In this document: one piece after another, positions 18,851-31,283 of the stretch | How the letters are laid out: each line of letters begins with the position of its first letter | How positions within the stretch are numbered: position 1 is the first letter of the stretch | NCBI GenBank assembly: GCA_031551135.1 | Contig: JAVBOA010000010.1 | Coordinates: 774-64,773 of the forward strand | Length of the DNA: 64,000 nt | DNA from: Eubacteriales bacterium | Lineage (GTDB): Bacteria; Bacillota; Clostridia; Lachnospirales; JAITVM01 | Direction of reading: 5' to 3' | The notes under the pieces: generated by a model | Told to the model about the DNA's origin: nothing | Seen by the model: the letters and a program-made list of their open reading frames with translations, nothing else | Database searches by the model: none | Made by a program: the position numbers and the translations under genes

Positions 18851-18917
18851 ACAATCACTCCTCAAAATATTGATGAAGCTATTATTTGCAGAAATCGAAA
18901 AATTATGCATAAAAAAA

Positions 18918-18990
18918 TGGGAGCTATAGGGCTCGAACCTATGACCCTCTGCTTGTAAGGCAGATGCTCTCCCAGCTGAGCTAAGCTCCC
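18918..18990 (-). tRNA. tRNA-Val (anticodon TAC)
   Basis: The reverse complement folds as a 73-nt cloverleaf: GGGAGCT-TA-GCTC-AGCTGGGA-GAGC-A-TCTGC-CTTACAA-GCAGA-GGGTC-ATAGG-TTCGAGC-CCTAT-AGCTCCC-A. Confidence 0.92.
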
Positions 18991-19006
18991 AAAAAATCTT
19001 TTTACA

Positions 19007-19143: not shown

Positions 19144-20340
19144 TTAATATTGGTCATAAGCTTCTTTAATCCATTCTTCAACATCCGCCAGACCGATACC
19201 CGGGCAAGACATAGTTCCATATTTCCACGCAACGTCGTTCATAATCTTAGGAGCCATAGCAAGAGAATCTTCTAAAGAAATTCCCATGCCTTTTAAAGTA
19301 GGAAGTCCGGAAGCCTTCATAAAATCTTTCAAAGCTTGAGCAGTTTTTTCGCCAAGTTCTTCGTCCGATTTAATGCTTGTTATATCAATGCCAATAGCTT
19401 CTGCGGCAATTTTAAGTCTGTCAGGCATATGTTTTGCATACAATTTAGCGAGCTGCGGAAGACAGAGAGCACAGCAAAGACCGTGAGGTTTGTGATAAAC
19501 CGAGCCAACAGTATGTCCGACAGCATGAGTCAAGTGGCACATAACTGTATTGATGGCATAACCGCCGAGAGAAGAAGCAAAAGCAAGTCCTTCGCGGGCT
19601 TCAATATTATTTCCGTCTTCAAGAGCTACAGGAAGCCATTTATGGATATTTTTAATCGATTCAACAGCATACATTGTAGCATATTTTTCTTTAGCCATAG
19701 GGTCGTTTCGGCAGATACAGTCAAATGAGTGAGTATAAGCATCAAAGGCACATGCGGCAGTTCCGGCAGGAGGCATTCCACAGTAAAGTTTCGGGTCATT
19801 AAGGGCAAGAGAAACATAGCAAGCAGGACCAAAAAGTCCGAATTTTTGATTTACTTTTGTATCGGATATAACTGCACCTAAAGTTGCTTCGGAGCCGGTG
19901 CCTGCCGTTGTCGGAATAGCGATTATCGGCGTAGTCGGCATAGTAAATTTTTCTGTGCCCGGCATTCCCGGTATCATAATACCAAACCATTGATTGATTG
20001 GCGGTGGATTGTGCAAAAGGTATCTGACAGCCTTTGCGGTATCCATAGAGCTTCCGCCGCCGATTGCAATAATTCCGTTTACTTTTTCATTGTTGGCAAG
20101 AGCGCCTGCTTCGTCACAAACAAAATCCGGCGGATCGGCCTGTACTCCGTCGAATTCGCAATACTCGATTCCTGCCTCTTTGAGTTTGGCAAGAAGCGGA
20201 TCAACAACTCCGGCAGCTTTGATTCCTTTGTCATAAACAACTATTGCTTTCGTCATTTTTAGTTCTTTTGCCTTTTCGCCTATAAGCTCTGATGCACCAA
20301 CTCCAAAAATTTGAGGAGCGAAGTAACCTGTCTTTACCAT
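19144..20340 (-). CDS. Iron-containing (group III) alcohol dehydrogenase
   Basis: GIIAIGGGSSMDTAKA, and a His-rich metal site region (THSFD...HLTHAVGHTVGSVYHKPHGL). Start set at MVKTGYF (ATG 20340) with an AGGAGG RBS. Confidence 0.85.
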   Translation of the reverse strand: MVKTGYFAPQIFGVGASELIGEKAKELKMTKAIVVYDKGIKAAGVVDPLLAKLKEAGIEYCEFDGVQADPPDFVCDEAGALANNEKVNGIIAIGGGSSMDTAKAVRYLLHNPPPINQWFGIMIPGMPGTEKFTMPTTPIIAIPTTAGTGSEATLGAVISDTKVNQKFGLFGPACYVSLALNDPKLYCGMPPAGTAACAFDAYTHSFDCICRNDPMAKEKYATMYAVESIKNIHKWLPVALEDGNNIEAREGLAFASSLGGYAINTVMCHLTHAVGHTVGSVYHKPHGLCCALCLPQLAKLYAKHMPDRLKIAAEAIGIDITSIKSDEELGEKTAQALKDFMKASGLPTLKGMGISLEDSLAMAPKIMNDVAWKYGTMSCPGIGLADVEEWIKEAYDQY

Positions 20341-20408: not shown

Positions 20409-20427
20409 AAACCGAACCCAAAAAAAG

Positions 20428-20518
20428 CCATCTCCTTCTCGCAATGGAAAGCATTTCTGTTTCCGGAAATACTCATCGGCTGCTATCCATGACACTCGTT
20501 TTAGGATTAACATCTCGG
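20428..20518 (-). promoter_or_regulatory. Conserved leader RNA element, copy B (riboswitch/attenuator candidate)
   Basis: Minus strand reads CCGAG-N33-GCCGAUGAGUAUUUCCGGAAACAGAAAUGCUUUCCAUUGCGAGAAGGAGAUGG. Matches copy A with compensatory changes in two stems. Confidence 0.6.
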
Positions 20519-20535
20519 TTTTAGCAATTATAACA

Positions 20536-20564
20536 ATTATAATCGAGTAAATTTACAAAGTCAA
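20536..20564 (-). promoter_or_regulatory. SigA-type promoter for the adh leader
   Basis: Minus strand TTGACT (20564..20559), 17-nt spacer, TATAAT (20541..20536). Confidence 0.65.
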
Positions 20565-20812: not shown

Positions 20813-20841
20813 TTGACATATTTTAAACTATTAAATATAAT
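20813..20841 (+). promoter_or_regulatory. SigA-type promoter for the mop operon leader
   Basis: TTGACA (20813..20818), 17-nt spacer, TATAAT (20836..20841). Confidence 0.7.
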
Positions 20842-20857
20842 AAAAATGTACAAATTT

Positions 20858-20949
20858 CCGAGCCGAAGTATCTAAAGTGTATACTATGATATAAGGCCGA
20901 TGAGTATAGTTGGAAACAGCTATGCTTTCCATGGTTGAGAAGGAGATGG
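20858..20949 (+). promoter_or_regulatory. Conserved leader RNA element, copy A (riboswitch/attenuator candidate)
   Basis: CCGAG-N33-GCCGAUGAGUAUAGUUGGAAACAGCUAUGCUUUCCAUGGUUGAGAAGGAGAUGG. Contains a 10-bp stem capped by a GAAA tetraloop at 20903..20926. Confidence 0.6.
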
Positions 20950-20970
20950 TTATATTTTATTTATGTATTA

Positions 20971-21020
20971 AATCAATCTGAAAGCCTTTTTTGACTTTCC
21001 GGTTGATTTTTTTTATTTTT
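20971..21020 (+). terminator. Leader terminator upstream of mop
   Basis: AATCAATCTGAAAG...CTTTCCGGTTGATT (13 of 14 bp) followed by TTTTTTTTATTTTTT. The RBS AAGGAGG and ATG 21049 follow. Confidence 0.7.
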
Positions 21021-21048
21021 TAATCATTTTGAAAAGGAGGAAGAATGA

Positions 21049-23892
21049 ATGGCTTTAAAGAAAATGACTTTAGTTATTAACGGCACAGAGCGTATGTTTA
21101 TGTGCGAGCCCGAAAAAGATTCCCTTGCTCAAGTAATTAGGCGGTTGGGGTTGACTGGAACAAAGATTGGATGCGGAACAGGCCAATGCGGTGCATGTTC
21201 CGTAATTTTGAACGGCGAGGTTTGTCGTTCATGCTCGAAAAAAATGAAAACAGTTGCTGAATATAGCGTAATCACTACCATCGAAGGACTTGGCACAGCG
21301 GAAAACCTTCATCCGCTTCAAAAAGCGTGGATAATTTACGGCGGTGTTCAATGCGGTTTTTGCAGCCCGGGCTTTATTGTTTCCGCAAAATGCCTTTTAG
21401 ACCACAATCCGAATCCTACACGTCAAGAAGTCAGAGACTGGTTCCAAAAGAACCGCAACGCTTGCCGTTGTACAGGATATAAACCTTTAGTTGATGCCGT
21501 TATGGCGGCCGCCGAAGTAATGCGCGGTGACAAGCCTATGTCTTCGCTTGAATACAAAATGCCGGAAGACGGCAAAATATACAGTTCTCATTTTCCGCGT
21601 CCTGCCGCTCTCGGAAAAGTTCTCGGCGCTACAGATTATGGCGACGATATTTCGCAAAAAACTCCGGGCATGCTGGAATCGGCTGTCGTTCTTGCAAGAG
21701 TTCATCACGCTAACATAATTTCGATTGATATTTCGGAAGCTGAAAAAGCTCCGGGCGTAGTTAAAGTTGTTACTTCAAAAGACGTTAAAGGAATGAACCG
21801 CGTGCCTATTCCAATAGCTTCACCGCGTGCAAAAGGTTCCGGATTTGAACGTCCGATTTATAATGATAAAAAAGTTTTCCGTTATGGCGATATTTTAGCT
21901 TTGGTTATTGCTGACACCCGCGAAAACGCAAGGGCTGCCGCAAAACTTGTAAAACTGGAGCTTGAAGAACTTCCTGCAAATTTAACAGCAGTAGAGGCTT
22001 TGGCCGAAGACGCTGTCAGAGTACATGACGAATATCCTCCTGTAGTATGCGACATGCCTTGCTTCCACGGCGACGACCCAAGAGAAGAACTCAAAAAGAG
22101 CAAATTCGTTGTTGAAGGAAGTTTCCATTCCAGCAGAGAGCCGCATTTACCGATTGAACCGGACGTTGTTCAAGCATATATCGACGAAAACGGAATTTTG
22201 ACTATACACAATAAAACATTGGCTCTGCATTTGAGCTGGGCAGTTATTGGGCCGGGCGTAGGATTCCCTAAAGAAAAAATCCGTATTATAGAAAATCCAA
22301 CCGGAGCAAGTTTCGGATACTCCATGGATCCGCATACTTCCGCTGTGGTTGCGGTTGGTACAATCGCAGTTGACGGCCGCCCTGTCAACCTTACGCTGAC
22401 ATATGAAGAGCATATGCATGTAACAGGCAAGCGTCTTCCTTCTTATACAAACGCAATTATGGGCTGTGATGAAAACGGCAAGCTCAACACAATGGCTTAT
22501 GAAATTATAATGGAAAAAGGTGCGTATTCTCAATTGGCTTATGTTTATGCCGAAGCCGGCCTTCGTTTCTTTGGTGCGCCTTATACCGTGCCGAACACAT
22601 GGGGAATTTGCGAAGTTGTAATGACAAACCACAATTTCGGAATCGCATACCGCGGCGCCGGTTCTCCGCAAGGTCAGCACGCATCAGAAATTTTGGTAGA
22701 CATGCTTGCTGAAAAAGCCGGAATCGATCCGCTCGAATTCAGATATATGAACGTTTATAAAGAAGGCGATACTTCGCATATCGGTCATAAGTTCAATGTA
22801 TATCCTATGCAGGCTATTTTGGACAAGCTTCGCCCGAAATATCAAGCTGCAAAAGAAAGAGCTGCAAAAGAATCCACTCCGGAGAAAAAACGCGGCGTTG
22901 GTGTTTGCTGCGGTACTTTCAACGTTGGACCTAATCCGAACGATAACTGTACTATAACTCTTGAGCTTAATGAAAAAGACGGCATTACGCTTTATTCGAA
23001 CTGGCAAGACCAAGGACAAGGCGCGGATATCGGTTCTCTTACAAACTGCCACGAGGCATTCAAAGAACTCGGAATCAGACCTGACCAAATCAAACTTGTT
23101 ATGAACGATACATTCCTTCCTTCTGTTCATGGTCCTTCCGGCGGAAGCCGCTCGCACTATATGGACGGTATGGCAATGGTTAATGCCGCTAACAAACTTA
23201 TGGACGCAATGAGAAAAGATGACGGCACTTTCAGAACATATCAAGAAATGAAAGCCGAAGGAATTGAAACAAAATACGCCGGCGCAGGCTCGACAGGAGC
23301 ATTTACTTCTCCGCTCGACCCGAATACCGGACAAGGAAACCCTTCCGGCGAATATATGTTTGCGGCTTACCTCGCTGATGTTGAGGTTGAAGTTGCAACC
23401 GGCAAAACAAAAGTAATCAGCATGCACTGTGTATGCGACGTCGGCGTAATCGGAAATTATCTTGCTGTAGACGGTCAAGCATACGGCGGTATGTCGCATT
23501 GTATCGGCTTTGCGCTTTCGGAAAATTATCATGATGTAGATAAACATAAGCATCTTATCGGCGCAGGACTTCCGTTTATAAATGATGTTCCGGACGGTGA
23601 CGATTTCACGGTTGAATATAATATTTCTCCGAGAAATACAAATCCTTTCGGCTCCGGCGGATGCTCCGAAGTTTTCCAAAGCTCGGATCACGTTGCTATA
23701 CTTAACGGTATTTACAATGCTGTTGGCGTACGTATTACCGATATTCCGGCACTTCCTGAAAAAGTTAAAGCCGGAATCGACGCTCTTGCCGCAGGCAAAG
23801 AAGTTGAAAACCTGAAATATAATCTGGGTAAAGATTTGTTTGAAAAACTCGATTTTGCGAAAGCAAATCCGGTTGAGATTAAAAAAGCCTAG
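21049..23892 (+). CDS. mop: Mop-type molybdenum aldehyde oxidoreductase (xanthine oxidase family; two [2Fe-2S] domains fused to the Mo-pterin domain, no FAD domain)
   Basis: GCGTGQCGACSV and QCGFCSPGF cluster motifs. ENLHPLQKAW...RDWFQKNRNACRCTGYKPLVDAVM closely parallels Desulfovibrio gigas MOP as I recall it. The 947-aa single-chain layout also matches. Confidence 0.88.
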   Translation: MALKKMTLVINGTERMFMCEPEKDSLAQVIRRLGLTGTKIGCGTGQCGACSVILNGEVCRSCSKKMKTVAEYSVITTIEGLGTAENLHPLQKAWIIYGGVQCGFCSPGFIVSAKCLLDHNPNPTRQEVRDWFQKNRNACRCTGYKPLVDAVMAAAEVMRGDKPMSSLEYKMPEDGKIYSSHFPRPAALGKVLGATDYGDDISQKTPGMLESAVVLARVHHANIISIDISEAEKAPGVVKVVTSKDVKGMNRVPIPIASPRAKGSGFERPIYNDKKVFRYGDILALVIADTRENARAAAKLVKLELEELPANLTAVEALAEDAVRVHDEYPPVVCDMPCFHGDDPREELKKSKFVVEGSFHSSREPHLPIEPDVVQAYIDENGILTIHNKTLALHLSWAVIGPGVGFPKEKIRIIENPTGASFGYSMDPHTSAVVAVGTIAVDGRPVNLTLTYEEHMHVTGKRLPSYTNAIMGCDENGKLNTMAYEIIMEKGAYSQLAYVYAEAGLRFFGAPYTVPNTWGICEVVMTNHNFGIAYRGAGSPQGQHASEILVDMLAEKAGIDPLEFRYMNVYKEGDTSHIGHKFNVYPMQAILDKLRPKYQAAKERAAKESTPEKKRGVGVCCGTFNVGPNPNDNCTITLELNEKDGITLYSNWQDQGQGADIGSLTNCHEAFKELGIRPDQIKLVMNDTFLPSVHGPSGGSRSHYMDGMAMVNAANKLMDAMRKDDGTFRTYQEMKAEGIETKYAGAGSTGAFTSPLDPNTGQGNPSGEYMFAAYLADVEVEVATGKTKVISMHCVCDVGVIGNYLAVDGQAYGGMSHCIGFALSENYHDVDKHKHLIGAGLPFINDVPDGDDFTVEYNISPRNTNPFGSGGCSEVFQSSDHVAILNGIYNAVGVRITDIPALPEKVKAGIDALAAGKEVENLKYNLGKDLFEKLDFAKANPVEIKKA

Positions 23893-23986
23893 AAAAATTC
23901 CAGAAATATAACTATAATAATAGGGCTGCGTTTTTTGCAGCCCTTAACTATATAACTATATAACAAATCCCAAAAGTGGTGTGTTT

Positions 23987-26233
23987 ATGAATCCTAATTA
24001 TTTTGAAGAAAAAATTAATAAATGTTTAAGAGATGAAAAAGCATTCTGTTCGAATGCTTGTCCTTTTGATATCGATATCAGAGATTTTCTCGGAAAAATC
24101 CAGAAAGGCTTGTTCACTCAGGCGTACAATGCTTATGCTAAAACAGTTTTGTTCCCGAATATTGTTTCGCGTCTTTGTCCGGAAATGTGTAAAAATAATT
24201 GTATCCGTTGCGGAATCGACGAGCCGGTTTTAGTTGGAGAATTAGAAAAATCTCTTTCATATATGCATAAAAATCAGGTCACGCCTGCATATTATATTCC
24301 CGAAAAAAACAAAAGCGTGCAGATTATAGGCGGCGGTTTATGTGCCCTAGCCTGCGGAATAAAATTGGCGCAGAGCGGATATAGAGTTGACCTTTATGAA
24401 AAAAATCCCAAAACCGGCGGAACTGTTTGGAATACAGAAGAAAATATTCTGCCGCAAGATTTGATTGAAGAAGAAATTCAAAACAAAGCAAACCAAAGAT
24501 TTTTGAATATTTTTACCGATGCCGATTCAGAAGAAATCAATTTAGATTACGACGCTGTTTTCGTGGCGACGGGTTTTGGCGGAAATACTTTCGGCGCGGA
24601 AAAAAGAGATAACGAGTTTTTTTTAGACGATAAAGTATTTTTCGGTGGCTCGCTTGTGAATGGCGAACAATCCAAAGTTCTCTCTGTTCAGCAAGGTATT
24701 TATTGCGCTAAAAAAATAGATGCTTTTTTACGCAAAGTTAAATTAATTACTCCGAAACCTCAAACGGCGTTTTTCAAACCCGATACCGAAAAAATTCTTT
24801 CAAAAAATCCGGTGAAGCCGATTGATGAAAATTCATGGACTGAAGCGGAAATAAAAGAAGAAGCTTCGAGATGTATTCAATGCAGATGTAATAATTGCAT
24901 GGAAGTATGCGATATGCACAATTATTACGGTCGAGAGCCAAAAAAAACTCTTGGCTCAGTTGCCGAAACTATTTTTAAATCTCAGTGGTCAAGAAAGACC
25001 GCACATATTTTAGCTAACAGCTGCACAAACTGCGGTGCGTGCAAAGACGCATGTCCTGTCGGAATTGATTTTTCACAAATCTACAAAGATTCCAGACGGG
25101 TTATGCATTTGCAGGGCGTTACGCCGCCTGCTTATCACGAATACTGGATTAATGACTTGATTCACAGCAACAGCGATGCCGCGCTTGTAAAGCCTGCGAA
25201 AAAAACTACGAATTATCTTTTGTTCCCGGGCTGTCAGCTTGGCGCGACTGACCCTGCTTACGTAGTCGAAAGCTACAGGCTTCTTTCGGAGCTTTTGGAC
25301 AACGAAGTCGGAATTATGTATCAATGCTGCGGTGCGCCGGCCTATTGGGACGGAAATCTGGAAATGTTTTCGTCAACATGCGATAATATCAGAAATTCGT
25401 GGGAAGAACTCGGCAAGCCTGTTATGGTTACAATATGCCCCAGCTGTTACGCGCTTTTCAAAGAGCAATTGCCGGATATTCCGAATATTTCAATTTGGGA
25501 ATTATTAGCGGAAAAATTTGAGCCGTTGGATATCGGAAACTCCCAAAAAATAACGGTTTTCGACCCTTGCTCAAGCTCTGAGTTTCCCGAAATGCAAAAA
25601 TCTGTACGGAAATTGATTGAAAAAATCGGTTTTATCATAGAAGAGGCGGAGGCTGAATCGTCCGCCTGCTGTGGCTACGGCGGTTTAATTTACGGCGCAA
25701 ATCCTGACCTTTATGATAAGATAAACGAAAAAAATATCACGGCTTCGAAAAATGATTTCATTGCTTATTGTACAAACTGCCGAGAGGCCTTTGTGAAATA
25801 CAAAAAGCCGACTTATTATCTTTTGGAGTTGCTTCTTTTTAAAGATACAAACAGAAAATCCCACAGCCGTCTTTCTTTGACCCAGCGCAGAAAAAACAAA
25901 GAAAACACTAAAAAAGCATTATTGAAGGAGTTTTGGCAATTGGACGAAAAAGAAAATCCGAAAAAAATAAAACTTGTTATTTCTGATGAGCTTGTGGAGA
26001 AAATGGACGCACTTTTAATACATGAAGAGAATTTATCCGCGTGTATTCTTTATGCCGAAGAAAACGGCAGCAAAATATTCAACAACGAAAGAAAGTCCTA
26101 CACTGCACATTTATTGCAGGGAATTATTACTTTTTGGGTTGAATATCAAAAAAATTCCGACGGAAGTTTTTCTGTACTGAACGCGTATAAACATCGGATG
26201 AGTATAATTGAAAAAGGTGATATAGATGGCTGA
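23987..26233 (+). CDS. Multidomain redox protein: GltD-like Fe-S N-terminus, FAD/NAD(P) Rossmann, 2x[4Fe-4S] ferredoxin domain, two CCG (HdrD/GlpC-like) Cys-rich domains and a C-terminal extension
   Basis: IIGGGLCALACGIKLAQSGYRVDLYEKNPKTGG, CIQCRCNNCMEVC, CTNCGACKDACPVG, PGCQL...QCCGAP, DPCSS...ACCGYGG. The start is ATG 23987 or GTG 23981. Confidence 0.7.
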   Translation: MNPNYFEEKINKCLRDEKAFCSNACPFDIDIRDFLGKIQKGLFTQAYNAYAKTVLFPNIVSRLCPEMCKNNCIRCGIDEPVLVGELEKSLSYMHKNQVTPAYYIPEKNKSVQIIGGGLCALACGIKLAQSGYRVDLYEKNPKTGGTVWNTEENILPQDLIEEEIQNKANQRFLNIFTDADSEEINLDYDAVFVATGFGGNTFGAEKRDNEFFLDDKVFFGGSLVNGEQSKVLSVQQGIYCAKKIDAFLRKVKLITPKPQTAFFKPDTEKILSKNPVKPIDENSWTEAEIKEEASRCIQCRCNNCMEVCDMHNYYGREPKKTLGSVAETIFKSQWSRKTAHILANSCTNCGACKDACPVGIDFSQIYKDSRRVMHLQGVTPPAYHEYWINDLIHSNSDAALVKPAKKTTNYLLFPGCQLGATDPAYVVESYRLLSELLDNEVGIMYQCCGAPAYWDGNLEMFSSTCDNIRNSWEELGKPVMVTICPSCYALFKEQLPDIPNISIWELLAEKFEPLDIGNSQKITVFDPCSSSEFPEMQKSVRKLIEKIGFIIEEAEAESSACCGYGGLIYGANPDLYDKINEKNITASKNDFIAYCTNCREAFVKYKKPTYYLLELLLFKDTNRKSHSRLSLTQRRKNKENTKKALLKEFWQLDEKENPKKIKLVISDELVEKMDALLIHEENLSACILYAEENGSKIFNNERKSYTAHLLQGIITFWVEYQKNSDGSFSVLNAYKHRMSIIEKGDIDG

Positions 26234-26441
26234 GGACTTGACGAAAAATATTAATATGGATTCCCTTATTTGCGGTAAATGCAATATTCCGCTAGAAAAG
26301 AAAACAACTTATTTTAAATATATGGGATTTGATTTTAATGCCGATTTGCCTTGCTGTCCGTCTTGCAAGCAAGTGTACATTCCCGAAGAACTTGTTACAG
26401 GAAAAATGCAGAAAGTAGAAATGGAGCTTGAGGAAAAGTGA
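26226..26441 (+). CDS. 71-aa zinc-ribbon-like protein (CxxC ... CCPxC)
   Basis: CGKCNIPL...LPCCPSCKQVYIPEE. The start overlaps the upstream stop (ATGGCTGA) and the stop overlaps the GTG start of the radical SAM gene. Confidence 0.6.
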   Translation: MAEDLTKNINMDSLICGKCNIPLEKKTTYFKYMGFDFNADLPCCPSCKQVYIPEELVTGKMQKVEMELEEK

Positions 26442-27679
26442 GACATACATACAGCCTTTGCCCGATATGCTTCAAAAAAATTTCGGCTATACAAATCAAA
26501 AGAGGAAACGATTTTTATCTTGAAAAAGAATGTCCAAATCATGGAAAGTTTTCAACCATAGTTTGGCGCGGTGAGCCTAATCTCGAAAATTGGAGAGGCG
26601 ATTACCCGCCGCTCGAAAAAATGCCGCCGTGTCCGCAAGCCTGCGGCCTTTGCGCGGAGCATCAGCAACAGACTTGCTGTGTAATAATCGAAATTACGAA
26701 TCACTGCAATTTGGATTGTAATATTTGTTATAACGGCGGAAATAAAAATGATATTAACCCCGATACTGAGACCGTAAAAAATTGGATCAGTGAGTTAGCC
26801 GCTAAAGGCAAGAGTTTTTTGCAAATAAGCGGCGGCGAGCCGACAACAAGAGACGACATTCCCGAAATTATCGCGCATGCCAAAGAATGCGGCTTTGAAT
26901 ATATCCAACTCAATTCAAACGGTTTAAGAATCGCTTACGAGGACGGATATGCCAAAAATTTAGCAGATGCCGGGCTGAGTTTTGTCTTTTTGCAGTTTGA
27001 CGGCACTAACGACGATATTTACAGAAAACTGCGGAACAGAGAGCTTTTAAAAGAAAAGCTTGAAGTCATCAGAATTTGCGGCGAGCTGAATATCGGCGTT
27101 GCGCTCGTGGCTACGCTTGTACCCGGAATAAATATTGACGATATCGGAAATATTATACGGCTTGGAGCGTCGCTGTCGCCGGCGGTCAGAGGAGTGCATT
27201 TTCAACCGGTAGGATATATGGGAAAATTTAACCCGACGATTCCCGAAAACGATGACCGTTTCACATTGCCCGAATTAATCAGAGAGATTACAAAACAAAC
27301 CGAACTTCCGATTGAAAGCATTCTTGCTTCACGCTGTGACCACGCAATGTGCGGATTCCACGGCGATTTTATTTCCGAAAACGGCAAGCTAAGACCACTC
27401 GCCGTCAGAAAACCGACTACTTGCTGTTGTGATGTATCTGCCGAAGCAAATAGGAATTTTATCGGCAGAAGATGGAAAAGAAGTGAAAGCACCGATACCG
27501 AAGGCGGAGATAGTTTTGAAATTTTTCTGGAAAACTTGCGTCAGCACGGCTTTACAATCACCGCAATGGCTTTTCAAGATGCATATAGTATTGACTTTGA
27601 GAGAATTTGCAGATGTTCATTGCATGTCTATAAAGATAAAAATTTGATTCCGTTCTGCTTAAAGCATATTTTATATTGA
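26438..27679 (+). CDS. Radical SAM enzyme with an N-terminal zinc-ribbon (CPxC...CPNHG) and a Cys-rich C-terminus
   Basis: CNLDCNIC (Cx3Cx2C), QISGGEPT, N-terminal CPICFKK...ECPNHGKF, C-terminal TTCCCD. There is no in-frame TGA. Confidence 0.8.
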   Translation: MRHTYSLCPICFKKISAIQIKRGNDFYLEKECPNHGKFSTIVWRGEPNLENWRGDYPPLEKMPPCPQACGLCAEHQQQTCCVIIEITNHCNLDCNICYNGGNKNDINPDTETVKNWISELAAKGKSFLQISGGEPTTRDDIPEIIAHAKECGFEYIQLNSNGLRIAYEDGYAKNLADAGLSFVFLQFDGTNDDIYRKLRNRELLKEKLEVIRICGELNIGVALVATLVPGINIDDIGNIIRLGASLSPAVRGVHFQPVGYMGKFNPTIPENDDRFTLPELIREITKQTELPIESILASRCDHAMCGFHGDFISENGKLRPLAVRKPTTCCCDVSAEANRNFIGRRWKRSESTDTEGGDSFEIFLENLRQHGFTITAMAFQDAYSIDFERICRCSLHVYKDKNLIPFCLKHILY

Positions 27680-27722
27680 TACGATTTGATTCCAAAGGAT
27701 AGAAATAATATGACGAATAAAA

Positions 27723-27778
27723 AATTTCACACTCATTCTGCCCAAACTACCGAGCGGAACGAATGTGAAATTTTTTTC
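27723..27778. terminator. Probable bidirectional terminator between convergent operons
   Basis: ATTTCACA...TGTGAAAT stem flanked by an A-run (left) and TTTTTTT (right). Confidence 0.45.
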
Positions 27779-27788
27779 TTGAAATTCC

Positions 27789-29042
27789 TTAATGCTTTGA
27801 TATCAGCCTTTTTCCTAGTTTAGATGGTGAAAGTCCGTCCGACTTGTGAATAATTTTCACATCTGCCCCATAAATTCCGCAAATTTCGGATAAAGCCGCT
27901 TCGTAGGCTTTCGGGCGGATTTCGCAATTATCTTTGCTCCAAATTCCTATATTAATCAATTTCTCTGTTAAATTTAAATTTACCGAAAAGTCTACAATTT
28001 CTTCAAATCTAAACAGAATGTTGTCAAAATCAATCATTGAGACTTCGCCTTCTTTTCGGTAAGGCGGCGCGATTCTTGTAAGAAAAGAGCCGCATTGGCA
28101 TTTTTCTTTCATAAAATGCGTATAATCGCCGGTTCTGTATCGAATTAGCGGCACTCCCTCACGTTGCAGAGTAGTAAAAACTAATTCGCCGGTCGTTCCG
28201 TCCGGTAGCGGTATTCCGCTCAATGGGTCGATTACTTCGAAAAATAATTCTGCCTCTCGAAGATGCATGCCTTCGTGTGCGGAGCATTCAAGAGCCGCAC
28301 CGTAGCCCATTTCCGTAGTTCCGTAATGATTGAAAACGGTACAATCCAAATTATTTTCGATTCTTTTTCGGACAGTTTCGGCAAGACAATCCGCGGAAAG
28401 CAGTACGCTTTTGAGTTTATAATTTTTGTCTTTTAAATATTCCGAAAGTTCGAGAATCTGCACGGGCAATCCGGCGATACAATTCGGCTTGTATTCGATA
28501 AGATTGTTAAGTGCATCGGAAATATCTTTGATAGAGCCGTAAATTTCCGCTTGCATGCCTTTTTTTTCGCATGCAGATTTTAAAAGCTGAGAAACGCCGT
28601 ATTCGGAGCTTCCCGGCATAAAAATCAAAACTCTGTCACCATTTTTCGCAAGCTCGAGCATTCCCTGCGCAAAAAAATCCGTAGTCATTTCCAATTCGGA
28701 AGCCGTAAAGCCGATTCTTTTTGGCTCTCCTGTTGAGCCTGAGCTGAAGAGCGTTACCATTCGCAAAATCTCCTGCGGTGAAACCGAAAAAAAACTCTCC
28801 GCCTGATTTGTGATTAAATCTTCTGCCGAAGTCGTCTTTAGTTTTCCAAATTCTTCAAAAGATCCAATTTCTTTCGAAAACCGGTTTTTATAAAATTTAG
28901 AACTTTCGCCCGCCAGCGCAAGTGTTTTATTTATCGCTTTTAGCTGTAGCTTTCGCAAAGAAGCTAAACTGTTTTCCGAGACGGTTTTATTCAGCATATC
29001 GTTTACAAAAAAATCCAATACAGTTGGGTTCATATTGCTCAT
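27789..29042 (-). CDS. AMP-dependent (PaaK/phenylacetate-CoA-ligase-like) acyl-CoA ligase
   Basis: SSGSTGEPKR adenylation P-loop and YGTTE. About 417 aa, typical of the short PaaK-like branch. Confidence 0.75.
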   Translation of the reverse strand: MSNMNPTVLDFFVNDMLNKTVSENSLASLRKLQLKAINKTLALAGESSKFYKNRFSKEIGSFEEFGKLKTTSAEDLITNQAESFFSVSPQEILRMVTLFSSGSTGEPKRIGFTASELEMTTDFFAQGMLELAKNGDRVLIFMPGSSEYGVSQLLKSACEKKGMQAEIYGSIKDISDALNNLIEYKPNCIAGLPVQILELSEYLKDKNYKLKSVLLSADCLAETVRKRIENNLDCTVFNHYGTTEMGYGAALECSAHEGMHLREAELFFEVIDPLSGIPLPDGTTGELVFTTLQREGVPLIRYRTGDYTHFMKEKCQCGSFLTRIAPPYRKEGEVSMIDFDNILFRFEEIVDFSVNLNLTEKLINIGIWSKDNCEIRPKAYEAALSEICGIYGADVKIIHKSDGLSPSKLGKRLISKH

Positions 29043-29078
29043 CCTTTGGGAGTATTGTTCTATTTTTTGGAAAAATAT

Positions 29079-31283
29079 TTACAAATTATTTTTATTATAG
29101 TTAATCAAACATCCGGCAAGCAAAATTTCACGTTCTTTATCGTTCAATTCTCCGAGAGACAATTCGATTTCTTTATTTTTATTAAGAACGATACCTTTTA
29201 TAATCTCATCTTTGTTTATAATTGCTTTTTTCAAATCGGGGATATAAATATAATCATCTAATTCAAACTCGATTTCCGATTTCAGCACAAAAGGCATAAT
29301 TCCCCAATTTATTAAATTTGAGCGGTAGCGTTTTGTAGCGTATTCGCTGACGATATTCGCATAAGTTCCCAAAACTTTTTGGCAGGAAGCCGCCTGTTCA
29401 CGCGCCGAGCCGTCGCCCGGTTTTATTGCATAAACTGCCGAACCGATTGAGGTTTTCGAAAAATCTATCGGAAAACCGGATTTTATATTCGTTATATTTT
29501 CACCTTTAATGCGGCTTTTTTCGATTTCTTGAACAGCCTTGGCTTTCGGAACATAATCCGGATCTTTTCTCGATAATGTAAATTCCGCTAATTTCAGCGG
29601 ATTGGAACGATAACTCGAAGTTTCGCCAGAAGGAATTAATTCGTCTGTAGTCGTAACTTTATCCGTAATAAATGAAACAATTTTTATCAGCATATTATCT
29701 GCAAGCTCAATCATTTCCGGCCAATCTGCGATATTCGGTCCGTAAATCAATTCCGATTCGCTTTTTGGATTATTATATCCGTTATAACAGCGTTTTTCAT
29801 AGATACTCAAATCGAATGCGTATTTTGGAATATTATTATCAATTTCTCCTGCCGCTGTCAAAAATCCGCCGTTTGCGGCAGTTGCGGCAATTGATTTTGC
29901 GTCCATCAATGCGACTCCGGTCATTTGACCGTCGGAAGGTTTTGAGCCGTCACGGTTTGGAAAATTACGTGTAGTATGGCGGATGCTCAAGCTTCCGTTT
30001 TTAGGTATATCGCCTGCGCCGAAGCACGGACCGCAAAACGCAGGTTTTATTACCGCGCCCGAGGAAATTAATTTTGCAATCGTTCCGTTTTTGACAAGCT
30101 CTAAATATGACGGCTGAGATTCCGGATAAAGCGTTAAAGAAAATTCGTCGTTTCCGAGGGCGGTATTTTCCAAAATATTCGCCGCATGACATACGGAAGC
30201 GTAATTTCCTCCGGCGCAACCGGCGATAATTCCCTGATCGACTTTCAATTTTCCGTTTATAATTTTCTTGCTTAAATCCAATTTCAATTTAGGATCTTTT
30301 ACGTAATTAAGGCTGTCTTCAGCGACTTTCGATAAAATTTCTTCAAGATTATTGTTAAGATAATCGATTTCATAAACATTGCTTGGATGGAAAGGCAGAG
30401 CAATCATTGGTCTTATTTCGGATAAATCGATTTCAATAAGACCGTCATAATAAGCAGTATCTTTTATAGAAAGAGGCTTGTAATCTCCGCCGCGCAAATG
30501 CGTTTTCAAGTACTCCTCCGTGATTTCGTCGGTTTCCCAAATACTCGATAGGCAAGTGGTTTCGGTAGTCATAACGTCGATTCCGTTTCGGAAATAAATA
30601 TCCAGATTTTTTATTCCGTCTCCCACAAATTCCAGAACTTTATTTTTCACAAAGCCCGACGCGAATACTTTACCGATAAGCGCAAGCGCAACGTCATGCG
30701 GACCGATATTGCTCTTTGGTTTTCCGCTCAATTTTACACAGATAATTTCCGGGTAATTTATATCGTAAGTTTGGTTAAGAAGCTGTTTTGCAAGCTCGCC
30801 GCCGCCTTCTCCAATAGCCATTGTTCCGAGCGCGCCGTATCTTGTATGCGAATCCGAGCCGAGAATCATTTTTCCGCAGCCGGCAAACATTTCACGCATA
30901 TATGAATGAATAACTGCCATATTTGGGGGAACGAAAATTCCGCCGTATTTTTTTGCCGCCGAAAGTCCGAAAACGTGGTCATCCTCGTTAATCGTTCCGC
31001 CGACCGAACAAAGCGTGTTATGGCAATTTGTCAGAACATAAGGTATCGGAAATTTTTGCAGACCGGAAGCTTTTGCGGTTTGAATAATTCCGACGTAAGT
31101 TATGTCATGCGAAGCCATAGCGTCAAAAACGATTTTCAATTTATCCATATTTCCGGATTTATTGTGATTTTCCAGAATTCTATAAGATATTGTATTTTTT
31201 TTCGCTTCATCTACAGGCATTTGAGTATTTTCTAAAATTTCATATTTATTGCTGACAAAAATTCCTTTATCAATAATTTTCAT
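29079..31283 (-). CDS. Aconitase-superfamily hydratase (fused catalytic and swivel domains)
   Basis: [12 protein letters not shown] and CGPCFGAGD cluster-ligand motifs. C-terminal swivel-like region ([22 protein letters not shown]). 36 nt upstream of the CoA ligase gene. Confidence 0.75.

What the first reader, a model, noticed from the sequence alone, without database searches (positions are those of the whole stretch)
21049..31283. Mop aldehyde oxidoreductase embedded in a tightly coupled redox / zinc-ribbon / radical-SAM operon, facing a CoA-ligase and aconitase-like hydratase operon
Seen in sequence: the mop gene (947 aa) is followed by a 748-aa FAD/Fe-S/CCG protein, a 71-aa CxxC..CCPxC protein and a radical SAM enzyme. 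The last three are linked by overlapping stop/start codons (ATGGCTGA at 26226..26233; GTGA at 26438..26441). The operon converges on a PaaK-like CoA ligase and an aconitase-family hydratase, which lie 36 nt apart in an operon. No step of a known pathway requires this combination. From memory only (not verifiable here), NCBI/TIGRFAM carry locus-tag-derived names for neighbours of mop in Desulfovibrio vulgaris: DVU_1553 family AMP-dependent CoA ligase, DVU_1557 family redox protein, and radical SAM (seleno)protein TrsS. If that recollection holds, this would be a Clostridia version of a module conserved across phyla but functionally uncharacterised. Possible roles are cofactor or active-site maturation of Mop, a dedicated electron-transfer chain, or a carboxylate/aldehyde/acyl-CoA conversion route. 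All of these are inference.
Basis: partly seen in the sequence, partly recalled or inferred. Interest (0 to 1): 0.75.

Follow-up and report, generated by a model that had tools for sequence, protein, structure and literature searches.

The report
Conserved Mop aldehyde-oxidoreductase accessory gene module
This is a cut-down copy of a gene set that travels with one kind of molybdenum aldehyde oxidoreductase in many bacterial phyla; the set is already catalogued, but nobody knows what its accessory enzymes do.

Summary
All six ORFs, both overlapping stop/start junctions and the convergent layout are present as described.

- Mop: NF045668
- 748/750-aa FAD/Fe-S/CCG protein ("Diclust"): NF045663
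- 71-aa zinc ribbon: NF045645 (DVU_1557 family, DUF7479)
- Radical SAM enzyme: best hit NF045646 (TrsS), 1.1 bits under the cut-off
- Ligase: NF045666 (DVU_1553 family)

The genes co-occur strongly in both directions, across at least six phyla. Among 38 TrsS loci with good flanks, 25 carry Mop, Diclust, DVU_1557 and the ligase together. Of 7 loci with a close Mop and enough flank, 6 carry TrsS. Of 64 loci with only a distant XO-family enzyme, none do.

The aconitase-family hydratase is not part of the module (0 of 80 loci).

This lineage instead adds an Fe-alcohol dehydrogenase. It lacks the usual methyltransferase, XdhC-like, MocA-like and C-GCAxxG genes. P3-less Moco/Tuco-class riboswitches sit ahead of both mop and the ADH.

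Natural fusions link Diclust to DVU_1557, and DUF5714 to TrsS.

My best reading is that Mop plus Diclust/DVU_1557 form the redox unit, and that TrsS plus the ligase probably help mature a metallocofactor. That last part is inferred only.

Verdict: a new member of a known but uncharacterised kind, of moderate interest.

The parts
19144..20340 (-). Fe-dependent alcohol dehydrogenase (398 aa from ATG 20340 with an AGGAGG RBS; the ORF listing extends it to TTG 20379). A lineage-specific partner of the module.
   Evidence: Pfam Fe-ADH and ADH_Fe_C. No NCBIfam equivalog reached its cut-off. Orthologs 71-72% identical lie beside the module in L081 and L082, in an operon with the ligase. Start codon read.
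20419..20531 (-). Moco/Tuco-class riboswitch aptamer (RF01055) lacking P3, in the ADH leader. A promoter-like TTGACT-17-TATAAT lies just upstream at 20564..20536.
   Evidence: 36.1 bits against a gathering score of 36. Aligns with the mop-leader aptamer. nhmmer E=7.8e-27 against the 3-aptamer profile, which includes this sequence itself. Promoter.
20813..20841 (+). Perfect consensus sigma-70-type promoter (TTGACA-17-TATAAT) for the mop operon
   Evidence: 12 of 12 matches, ending 3 nt before the riboswitch
20844..20961 (+). Moco/Tuco-class riboswitch aptamer (RF01055) lacking P3, in the mop leader
   Evidence: 67.4 bits against 36, E=4e-14; the P3 columns are deleted. Homologous aptamers sit upstream of the module in L082, L061, L068, L076, L079, L092 and L094.
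20971..21016 (+). Terminator-like hairpin followed by a U-run, between the aptamer and the mop start. Candidate expression platform; whether it switches on or off is unresolved.
   Evidence: Fold of 20940..21052; sequence read. Inference only: that segment folds no better than its shuffles (z -0.29).
21049..23892 (+). Mop: molybdopterin-dependent aldehyde oxidoreductase of the D. gigas MOP type (two [2Fe-2S] domains plus Mo-cofactor-binding domains, no FAD domain)
   Evidence: NF045668 at 1227.6 bits against a cut-off of 1100. Pfam Fer2, Fer2_2, Ald_Xan_dh_C, MoCoBD_1/2. PDB 1SIJ/1VLB 919 bits and 1DGJ 893 bits.
23922..23944 (+). GC-rich hairpin between mop and the downstream genes; possibly a partial terminator or processing site
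   Evidence: Fold z-score -3.17. The scan tool's + strand rule did not call it; it called the hairpin on the - strand only.
23987..26233 (+). Diclust: Fer4_20 + FAD domain + 2x[4Fe-4S] dicluster domain + two CCG domains + a C-terminal alpha/beta domain. It has no recognisable NAD(P)H domain.
   Evidence: NF045663 at 682 bits against 530. Pfam domains. AF2 model pLDDT 87.8. Foldseek matches NfnB/GltD-type modules and EtfD. GltD HMM aligned only over positions 26-233 of 449.
26226..26441 (+). DVU_1557-family / DUF7479 zinc-ribbon protein (71 aa), translationally coupled on both sides
   Evidence: NF045645 at 79.4 bits against 60; DUF7479 at 87.5 bits. Conserved C16, C19, C43, C44 and C47. AF2 model is a zinc-ribbon hairpin plus helix. 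Found fused to the C-terminus of Diclust homologs P0132, P0133 and P0240.
26438..27679 (+). TrsS-type radical SAM enzyme (Cys form, 413 aa), a shortened relative of the tetraether lipid synthase Tes/GDGT-MAS
   Evidence: NF045646 at 488.9 bits against a cut-off of 490; Tes NF045702 at 276 against 450. PDB 7TOL 214 bits over residues 3-290 and 364-412. No in-frame TGA.
27719..27776 (.). Bidirectional intrinsic terminator between the convergent operons
   Evidence: Long hairpin flanked by A/T runs; z-scores -4.65 (+ strand) and -5.06 (- strand)
27789..29033 (-). DVU_1553-family PaaK-like adenylate-forming ligase (414 aa from ATG 29033; 417 aa if ATG 29042 is used)
   Evidence: NF045666 at 375 bits against 300; PaaK TIGR02155 at 122 against 646. 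PDB 4R1L 114 bits. Conserved SGSTGxPKR, YGxTE, RYRTGD and C-terminal GKR motifs.
29079..31283 (-). PRK11413 aconitase-family hydratase. Shares an operon with the ligase here but is NOT part of the conserved module.
   Evidence: NF008503 at 1233 bits against 641. Absent from all 80 TrsS loci and all close-Mop loci. Replaced by Fe-ADH in L081 and L082.

Best explanation
The region is a reduced, riboswitch-controlled copy of the widespread module that NCBIfam models name after D. vulgaris loci DVU_1551 to DVU_1557.

Shown here:
- Mop is a D. gigas-type molybdenum aldehyde oxidoreductase.
- It is almost always followed by a large FAD/Fe-S/CCG protein (Diclust), the DVU_1557 zinc ribbon and the Tes-like radical SAM enzyme TrsS, and usually by a PaaK-like adenylating ligase.
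- In some genomes DVU_1557 is the fused C-terminal domain of Diclust.
- In some genomes TrsS is fused to a Cys-rich DUF5714 protein, whose nearest NCBIfam model (weak hit, far below cut-off) is the 'metal-binding double selenoprotein MbdU'.

Inferred:
(a) Mop oxidises aldehydes to acids. In this lineage the aldehydes would come from the co-regulated Fe-ADH. Mop passes electrons from its [2Fe-2S] clusters into Diclust/DVU_1557. Diclust has no NAD(P)H domain, so it serves as a dedicated electron wire ending at its flavin and CCG sites.
(b) TrsS and the ligase are not substrate-pathway enzymes. Elsewhere they occur with a methyltransferase and with C-GCAxxG or DUF5714 proteins. I read them as accessory enzymes that help build, tailor or insert a metallocofactor for the Mop/Diclust complex, and TrsS may draw its reducing electron from Diclust/DVU_1557.
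(c) The cell's molybdopterin-cofactor status gates the whole unit through P3-less Moco-class riboswitches on both the mop operon and the ADH gene.
For: Family assignments.

Conserved order and co-occurrence:
- 25 of 38 well-flanked TrsS loci carry Mop, Diclust, DVU_1557 and the ligase together.
- 6 of 7 loci with a close Mop and enough flank carry TrsS, against 0 of 64 loci with a distant XO-family enzyme.

Physical links:
- Diclust-DUF7479 fusions.
- DUF5714-TrsS fusions.
- Overlapping stop/start codons conserved in relatives.

Diclust architecture.

Support for a maturation role:
- 40 of 80 TrsS loci carry Mo-uptake or Moco genes. These include the XdhC-family 'aldehyde oxidoreductase maturation factor' (NF045664), the MocA-like NF045665, a cysteine desulfurase, ModA/ModB/ModE-like proteins, a MoCF-domain protein and a CobW-related GTPase.
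- The ligase lies within two co-directional genes of one of these in 17 loci, TrsS in 11 and the methyltransferase in 9.
- Catabolic neighbours differ by lineage: ADH here, ALDH elsewhere, and the hydratase only in this window.

Riboswitches at the head of the module were found in 8 loci.
Against: No experiment bears on any accessory gene, and the held literature gave none.

From my own knowledge: high-resolution D. gigas MOP structures show an ordinary Mo-MCD cofactor with no extra modification. Neither PaaK-like ligases nor Tes-like radical SAM enzymes have a known role in Moco biosynthesis.

This window has no XdhC-like, MocA-like, methyltransferase or C-GCAxxG gene within 64 kb. Here the maturation argument therefore rests on other genomes.

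In this lineage the ligase shares an operon with catabolic-looking genes, ADH or the hydratase. That favours a pathway role.

The DVU_1557 model is a generic zinc ribbon with no significant structural match, so nothing shows it carries electrons.
Confidence: 0.4

Rival explanations
1. Catabolic route. ADH makes an aldehyde, Mop oxidises it to an acid, and the PaaK-like ligase activates the acid to an acyl-CoA. TrsS, with an optional methyltransferase, performs a difficult C-H functionalisation on the same substrate family. Diclust/DVU_1557 carries the electrons away.
For: In L081 and L082 the ligase and the Fe-ADH share a convergent operon next to the module. In the window the ligase shares an operon with a hydratase. 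The ligase keeps every adenylation motif, and its closest solved relatives are phenylacetate-CoA ligases. The ADH and mop sit under matching riboswitches, which implies metabolic coupling.
Against: No catabolic gene is conserved with the module across phyla: hydratase 0/80 and ADH 1/80 (29% identity). In 17 loci the ligase lies among XdhC-like, MocA-like or Mo-uptake genes. TrsS partners are Cys-rich proteins with weak MbdU similarity, CobW-like GTPases and ModAB, not pathway enzymes.
Confidence: 0.2
2. Aldehyde-powered radical SAM system. Here TrsS is the client and Mop is the power supply. The very low-potential aldehyde/acid couple feeds electrons through Mop, Diclust and DVU_1557 to the TrsS radical SAM cluster. 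TrsS then acts on a substrate unrelated to Mop, for example a lipid-like or protein-bound one.
For: Diclust, DVU_1557 and TrsS are translationally coupled. Diclust lacks an NAD(P)H domain, so it needs a partner as donor or acceptor. DVU_1557 occurs fused to Diclust and sits directly before TrsS. TrsS keeps the N-terminal Zn-ribbon domain (Pfam PF23545) that aligns with the N-terminus of GDGT-MAS.
Against: In 5 of 38 well-flanked loci TrsS has none of the partner genes nearby, and in others it sits apart from Diclust. One close-Mop locus has Diclust but no TrsS (L091). A 947-aa molybdoenzyme is an expensive reductase for a single enzyme.
Confidence: 0.2
3. The genes are adjacent by chance or through recent rearrangement and have no shared function.
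For: The hydratase and the inverted position of the ligase show that local rearrangement has occurred.
Against: The same set and order recur in Bacillota, Bacteroidota, Acidobacteriota, Synergistota, Desulfobacterota and others. The set is specific to the close Mop clade. Gene fusions exist.
Confidence: 0.02

Closest known systems
NCBIfam-curated Mop/TrsS neighbourhood, whose models are named after D. vulgaris Hildenborough loci DVU_1551 to DVU_1557 (models NF045645, NF045646 and NF045663-NF045669). TrsS is attributed to Haft & Tolstoy 2025 (mSystems 10:e0141724) by the review PMC13188914.
   Same: Mop, Diclust, DVU_1557-family protein, TrsS-type radical SAM enzyme and DVU_1553-family ligase are all present. 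The first four are in the canonical order with coupled translation.
   Different: The DVU_1556 methyltransferase, XdhC-related factor, DVU_1551 NTP transferase and C-GCAxxG-C-C/DUF5714 protein are absent from the 64 kb window. The ligase is inverted and paired with a hydratase. An Fe-ADH and two riboswitches are added. TrsS has Cys rather than Sec and falls 1.1 bits below the model cut-off.
Desulfovibrio gigas / D. desulfuricans aldehyde oxidoreductase (MOP/MOD; PDB 1VLB, 1SIJ, 1DGJ)
   Same: Same family and domain order: two [2Fe-2S] domains plus Mo-cofactor domains, with no FAD domain. 919 and 893 bits.
   Different: About 40 residues longer at the C-terminus. From a low-GC organism. The solved enzymes were studied alone, without the accessory proteins.
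Tetraether lipid synthase Tes / GDGT-MAS (MJ0619; PDB 7TOL)
   Same: The N-terminal zinc-ribbon domain, the radical SAM core and the C-terminal segment all align.
   Different: About 110 residues of the central region are missing. Tes HMM score is 276 against a cut-off of 450. The genomic context is a molybdoenzyme, not lipid synthesis.
Radical SAM 'maturases' encoded beside tungsten AOR-family oxidoreductases (NCBIfam TIGR04317, 'tungsten cofactor oxidoreductase radical SAM maturase')
   Same: A radical SAM gene sits beside a pterin-dependent aldehyde-oxidising enzyme. This is a precedent for a dedicated maturase.
   Different: Different radical SAM family (only 52 bits) and a different oxidoreductase superfamily (XO family versus AOR family). 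Those maturases are also uncharacterised, as far as I know.
GltD/NfnB-type Fe-S flavoprotein modules and HdrD/EtfD-type dicluster-CCG proteins
   Same: The Diclust N-terminus matches the Fer4_20 + FAD part of NfnB, GltD and DPD. Its C-terminal half matches EtfD and CCG proteins.
   Different: The NAD(P)H-binding domain appears deleted. There are no membrane helices. It has a unique C-terminal domain, and in some genomes a fused DUF7479.
Moco RNA motif (RF01055), P3-lacking class proposed to sense the tungsten cofactor (Regulski et al. 2008, PMC2408646)
   Same: Both aptamers reach the Rfam gathering score and lack P3.
   Different: Here they control an XO-family molybdoenzyme operon and an Fe-ADH. 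They do not control cofactor biosynthesis genes or AOR-family tungsten enzymes.

Membership tests
Mop/TrsS module named after DVU_1551-1557 (NCBIfam) | Mop of the NF045668 equivalog | tested here: met
   1227.6 bits against a cut-off of 1100
Mop/TrsS module named after DVU_1551-1557 (NCBIfam) | Dicluster/CCG flavoprotein NF045663 immediately downstream of Mop | tested here: met
   682.4 bits against 530; adjacency confirmed
Mop/TrsS module named after DVU_1551-1557 (NCBIfam) | DVU_1557-family small Cys protein (NF045645 / DUF7479) | tested here: met
   79.4 bits against 60; Pfam 87.5 against 27
Mop/TrsS module named after DVU_1551-1557 (NCBIfam) | TrsS radical SAM enzyme reaching the NF045646 cut-off | tested here: inconclusive
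   488.9 bits against 490, so 1.1 bits short. It is by far the best hit (next is Tes at 276), and the gene sits in the canonical position.
Mop/TrsS module named after DVU_1551-1557 (NCBIfam) | DVU_1553-family AMP-dependent ligase (NF045666) | tested here: met
   375.2 bits against 300. It lies on the opposite strand to TrsS, as in only 4 of 51 other loci.
Mop/TrsS module named after DVU_1551-1557 (NCBIfam) | DVU_1556 methyltransferase, XdhC-related maturation factor, DVU_1551 NTP transferase and C-GCAxxG-C-C protein nearby | tested here: not met
   HMMs built from 12-46 family members each find nothing in the six-frame translation of the 64 kb window. These genes are optional elsewhere too: found in 18-46 of 80 loci, and at least 6 complete loci lack the methyltransferase.
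Mop/TrsS module named after DVU_1551-1557 (NCBIfam) | Selenocysteine in TrsS (the selenoprotein form) | tested here: not met
   Uninterrupted 413-codon ORF. None of the 86 TrsS loci examined has an in-frame TGA.
Tetraether lipid synthase Tes/GDGT-MAS | Full-length match to NF045702, including the central region of 7TOL (residues ~322-445) | tested here: not met
   276 bits against 450; only residues 3-290 and 364-412 align to 7TOL
Phenylacetate-CoA ligase PaaK | Equivalog score TIGR02155 / NF041878 | tested here: not met
   121.8 against 646 and 150.6 against 700. The adenylation motifs are nevertheless conserved.
GltD/NfnB NAD(P)H-dependent Fe-S flavoproteins | A second Rossmann domain that binds NAD(P)H | tested here: not met
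   GltD HMM aligned only over positions 26-233 of 449. Only ~208-224 columns aligned to GltD structures. The model has a single small Rossmann domain between residues 105 and 250.
Moco RNA motif RF01055 | Covariance-model score at or above gathering | tested here: met
   67.4 and 36.1 bits against 36. The second is borderline but clearly homologous to the first.
Moco RNA motif RF01055 | Ligand identity (Moco versus Tuco) and direction of switching | not testable with these tools
   P3 is absent. Regulski 2008 links that class to tungsten cofactor by correlation only.
D. gigas-type MOP aldehyde oxidoreductase | Aldehyde-oxidising activity with a Mo-MCD cofactor | not testable with these tools
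   Sequence membership only

The most novel reading that the evidence does not exclude
TrsS and the PaaK-like ligase (with the methyltransferase and C-GCAxxG/DUF5714 proteins in fuller versions) install a so-far unrecognised, possibly labile, modification or ligand on the metallocofactor of the Mop/Diclust complex. This would be a NifB/HydG-style radical SAM maturation system for an XO-family enzyme. The five-gene set in this window would then define the minimal machinery.
Probability: 0.2. Interest if true: 0.85.

Novelty: new member of a known kind. Interest (0 to 1): 0.45.

Why it matters
Mop-type aldehyde oxidoreductases are textbook molybdoenzymes, and they have been studied as isolated proteins. 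This analysis shows that across phyla the enzyme is encoded with a dedicated FAD/Fe-S/CCG partner, a zinc ribbon, a Tes-like radical SAM enzyme and an adenylating ligase. No function has been reported for any of them in the literature I could search.

If the accessory genes mature the cofactor, current views of XO-family cofactor assembly are incomplete. That might also bear on any difficulty in producing these enzymes recombinantly.

This window offers a stripped-down five-gene version with built-in riboswitch control. That makes it a convenient construct for heterologous tests.

P3-less 'tungsten-class' riboswitches recur in front of an XO-family enzyme. This bears on what that riboswitch class actually senses.

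Tried and rejected
1. Selenocysteine in TrsS. I looked for in-frame TGA in all 86 TrsS loci and found none, so I could not locate the Sec position.
2. Primary literature. The paper that names TrsS (PMC12013261) is not held. Searches on DVU locus tags, DUF names, and Tes plus selenocysteine gave nothing functional.
3. Hydratase, cupin and NagB as module members. Rejected: 0 of 80 loci.
4. Diclust as an NAD(P)H-dependent oxidoreductase, as its NCBI name suggests. Rejected on HMM coordinates and on the model.
5. DVU_1557 as a recognisable rubredoxin or other redox fold. There was no significant structural match; the best was a small zinc-finger protein at E=0.15.
6. The methyltransferase next to the ADH in L081 as a DVU_1556-family member. 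The similarity was weak and generic, 36.7 bits.
7. Organism identity.
8. The 335-aa antisense ORF inside mop (22684..23691 -). It recurs across loci only as a shadow of Mop coding sequence, so it is an artefact.

Full report
**Observation**

The ORF map shows six genes. mop runs 21049..23892 + (947 aa). A 750-aa ORF runs from GTG 23981, or 748 aa from ATG 23987, which is the public gene call. A 71-aa ORF runs 26226..26441 +. A 413-aa GTG-start ORF runs 26438..27679 +. Two convergent genes lie on the minus strand at 27789..29042 and 29079..31283.

Reading the junctions confirms ATGGCTGA at 26226..26233 and GTGA at 26438..26441. The 71-aa protein carries C16xxC19 and C43C44PxC47. The radical SAM enzyme carries CNLDCNIC.

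There are minor corrections. The ligase probably starts at ATG 29033, which has an RBS and matches the 414-aa gene call. That gives a 45-nt gap to the hydratase rather than 36. The Fe-ADH upstream starts at ATG 20340, behind an AGGAGG RBS.

**Identity of the proteins**

| Protein | Model | Bits | Cut-off |
|---|---|---|---|
| Mop | NF045668 | 1227.6 | 1100 |
| Large redox protein (Diclust) | NF045663 'diclust_near_Sec' | 682 | 530 |
| Small protein | NF045645 DVU_1557 family (Pfam DUF7479) | 79.4 | 60 |
| Radical SAM enzyme | NF045646 TrsS | 488.9 | 490 |
| Ligase | NF045666 DVU_1553 family | 375 | 300 |
| Hydratase | NF008503 (PRK11413) | 1233 | 641 |

For the radical SAM enzyme, the next hit is Tes at 276 bits.

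Matches to solved structures:
- Mop to D. gigas MOP (919 bits).
- TrsS to GDGT-MAS 7TOL over residues 3-290 and 364-412 only.
- The ligase to PaaK (114 bits).
- The Diclust N-terminus to NfnB, GltD and DPD modules.

A review (PMC13188914) attributes TrsS to Haft & Tolstoy 2025. That paper is not held.

**Is the combination conserved?**

I aligned TrsS homologs (A1) and scanned one genome per species. This gave 80 loci from Bacillota, Bacteroidota, Acidobacteriota, Synergistota, Desulfobacterota and others.

tBLASTn and ORF clustering give this canonical order: [C-GCAxxG] Mop > Diclust > DVU_1557 > TrsS > [methyltransferase] > ligase > [XdhC-like] [MocA-like]. Cluster representatives match these models:
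- NF045667 (DVU_1556 methyltransferase)
- TIGR01909 (C-GCAxxG-C-C)
- NF045664 ('XdhC family aldehyde oxidoreductase maturation factor')
- NF045665 (DVU_1551 NTP transferase)

Among 38 loci with at least 6 kb on both sides:
- Mop occurs in 29.
- Diclust occurs in 29.
- DVU_1557 occurs in 30.
- The ligase occurs in 30.
- All four occur together in 25.
- Five have none of the partners.

For the reverse test I scanned metagenomes with a Mop alignment (A2). Of 7 loci with Mop at 45% identity or more and enough flank, 6 carry Diclust, DVU_1557 and TrsS, and the seventh has Diclust only. Of 64 loci with XO-family enzymes at only 24-36% identity, none carries TrsS, DVU_1557 or the methyltransferase.

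The hydratase, the cupin and (but for one 29%-identity hit) the ADH are absent from all 80 TrsS loci.

**This lineage**

The nearest relatives have TrsS 60-61% identical and Mop 74% identical. Their arrangement is Mop > Diclust > DUF7479 > TrsS > < ligase < Fe-ADH. Their ADHs are 71-72% identical to the window's ADH.

So the inverted ligase is a trait of the lineage, and the Fe-ADH is a lineage-specific partner. The hydratase is unique to this genome.

HMMs built from the other families find no methyltransferase, C-GCAxxG, XdhC-like, MocA-like or DUF5714 gene anywhere in the 64 kb. The flanks encode unrelated sugar-transport, regulatory and housekeeping genes.

**Regulation**

Rfam finds two RF01055 aptamers. 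One is at 20844..20961 +, ahead of mop (67.4 bits). The other is at 20531..20419 -, ahead of the ADH (36.1 bits, at threshold). The second is clearly homologous to the first.

Each aptamer sits directly behind a near-consensus promoter. Both lack P3. Regulski et al. associate that class with tungsten cofactor by correlation.

The same riboswitch heads the module in L082, L061, L068, L076, L079, L092 and L094. It is absent in seven other loci tested.

Other features:
- A hairpin plus U-run follows the mop aptamer.
- A GC-rich hairpin separates mop from Diclust.
- A strong bidirectional terminator separates the convergent operons.

**Clues to mechanism**

1. Diclust. The GltD HMM aligns only over positions 26-233 of 449. 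The AF2 model (pLDDT 87.8) has one small Rossmann domain. Foldseek aligns only about 210-224 columns to GltD, and matches EtfD for the dicluster/CCG half. Diclust is therefore a flavin/Fe-S/CCG protein without an NAD(P)H site, which suits a dedicated partner of the FAD-less Mop.
2. DVU_1557. An exhaustive HMMER search finds DUF7479 as the C-terminal domain of Diclust-like proteins of 693-915 aa. DVU_1557 is thus effectively a detachable Diclust domain. Its model is a zinc-ribbon hairpin plus a helix, with no significant structural match.
3. TrsS fusions. TrsS occurs fused to DUF5714, a Cys-rich protein whose nearest NCBIfam model is the 'metal-binding double selenoprotein MbdU' (weak hit: 123.7 bits against a cut-off of 600).
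4. Neighbourhood. Across loci the accessory genes mix with Mo-uptake and Moco genes: XdhC-like, MocA-like, cysteine desulfurase, ModA, ModB, ModE-like, a MoCF-domain protein and a CobW-related GTPase. Of the 80 loci, 40 carry at least one of these. The ligase lies within two co-directional genes of one in 17 loci, TrsS in 11 and the methyltransferase in 9.
5. Two sub-modules can be seen. The first is a redox unit of Mop, Diclust and DVU_1557. The second is an accessory unit of TrsS, DUF5714 or C-GCAxxG, the methyltransferase, the ligase, and the XdhC-like and MocA-like genes.

**Interpretation**

It is shown that this is a member of the NCBIfam-catalogued module.

It is inferred that Mop/Diclust/DVU_1557 form an aldehyde-oxidising electron-transfer unit, and that TrsS and the ligase are accessory, probably maturation, enzymes. 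I give this 0.4.

The rivals are a true alcohol > aldehyde > acid > acyl-CoA route (0.2) and an aldehyde-powered reductase system that serves TrsS (0.2). The lineage's ADH-ligase operon supports the first rival. The translational coupling and the missing NAD(P)H site support the second.

Against maturation: from my own knowledge, D. gigas MOP structures show an ordinary Mo-MCD cofactor. No experiment exists for any accessory gene.

**Novelty**

The module is already curated (nine NCBIfam models) and has been partly described. This locus is a new, reduced member with added features: a P3-less riboswitch pair, an Fe-ADH and an inverted ligase. The function of the accessory genes remains an open question. 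I score interest at 0.45.

Noticed in passing
window 20419..20531 (-) and 20844..20961 (+): A divergent pair of P3-less Moco/Tuco-class riboswitches, each with its own near-consensus promoter. They control an Fe-ADH and the mop operon. An alcohol dehydrogenase that uses no pterin cofactor being under a Moco-class riboswitch is unusual, and implies it is only useful when Mop is functional.
   Followed up: partly
L061 3572..3695; L068 3608..3730; L076 2633..2748; L079 3791..3906; L092 723..841; L094 1760..1877; L082 4312..4429: The same riboswitch class recurs at the head of [C-GCAxxG]-Mop operons; P3 was seen deleted in the two alignments shown (L094, L092) and the other hits are similarly short (116-124 nt against a 135-position model). 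Regulski 2008 tied P3-less aptamers to the tungsten cofactor. Finding them in front of an XO-family enzyme questions that assignment, or hints at tungsten use by these enzymes.
   Followed up: partly
P0018 (665 aa), P0053 (675 aa); L010, L011, L012, L017, L022, L037, L043, L055: TrsS is fused to, or immediately preceded by, a DUF5714 protein. DUF5714 is Cys-rich, and its nearest NCBIfam model is the 'metal-binding double selenoprotein MbdU' (weak hit, 123.7 bits against a cut-off of 600).
   Followed up: partly
P0132 (813 aa), P0133 (782 aa), P0240 (915 aa), P0255 (471 aa): DUF7479 (DVU_1557) occurs as the C-terminal domain of Diclust-like or CCG proteins. In L009, L050, L052 and L067 Diclust is instead split, with its CCG/C-terminal half as a separate ~340-aa gene.
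   Followed up: partly
L002, L004, L026 (Clostridium ragsdalei P11), L034, L054: TrsS homologs about 50% identical also occur without Mop nearby. They sit directly after a CobW-related GTPase or ModA/ModB genes. This suggests a TrsS role tied to metal or cofactor handling that is not strictly Mop-specific.
   Followed up: partly
window 26438..27679: This TrsS scores 488.9 bits against the NCBIfam cut-off of 490. Automatic annotation would therefore leave it as a generic radical SAM protein, and the public copies of the protein carry no name.
   Followed up: yes
window 27719..27776: A long, near-perfect hairpin flanked by A-runs and T-runs acts as a bidirectional terminator between the convergent operons (z-scores -4.7 and -5.1).
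   Followed up: yes
window 23922..23944: A GC-rich hairpin lies in the 88-94-nt gap after mop. It could lower read-through into the accessory genes, or mark an RNA processing site.
   Followed up: no
window 22684..23691 (-): A 335-aa antisense ORF inside mop recurs in 45 loci, but only as a shadow of the Mop reading frame. It is an artefact of ORF listing, not a gene.
   Followed up: yes
L010, L035, L042, L069: Some genomes carry a second, shorter Mop paralog (884-890 aa) close to the module. In L010, L035 and L069 it lies beside a TIGR01977 cysteine desulfurase-family gene.
   Followed up: no
window 18917..18991 (-): A tRNA-Val(UAC) gene lies between the sugar-binding protein gene and the ADH. 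It marks the left edge of the module region.
   Followed up: yes
window 29079..31283 (-): A PRK11413 aconitase-family hydratase of unknown substrate shares an operon with the module's ligase, in this genome only. This is probably a local rearrangement that displaced the ADH to the other side of mop.
   Followed up: partly
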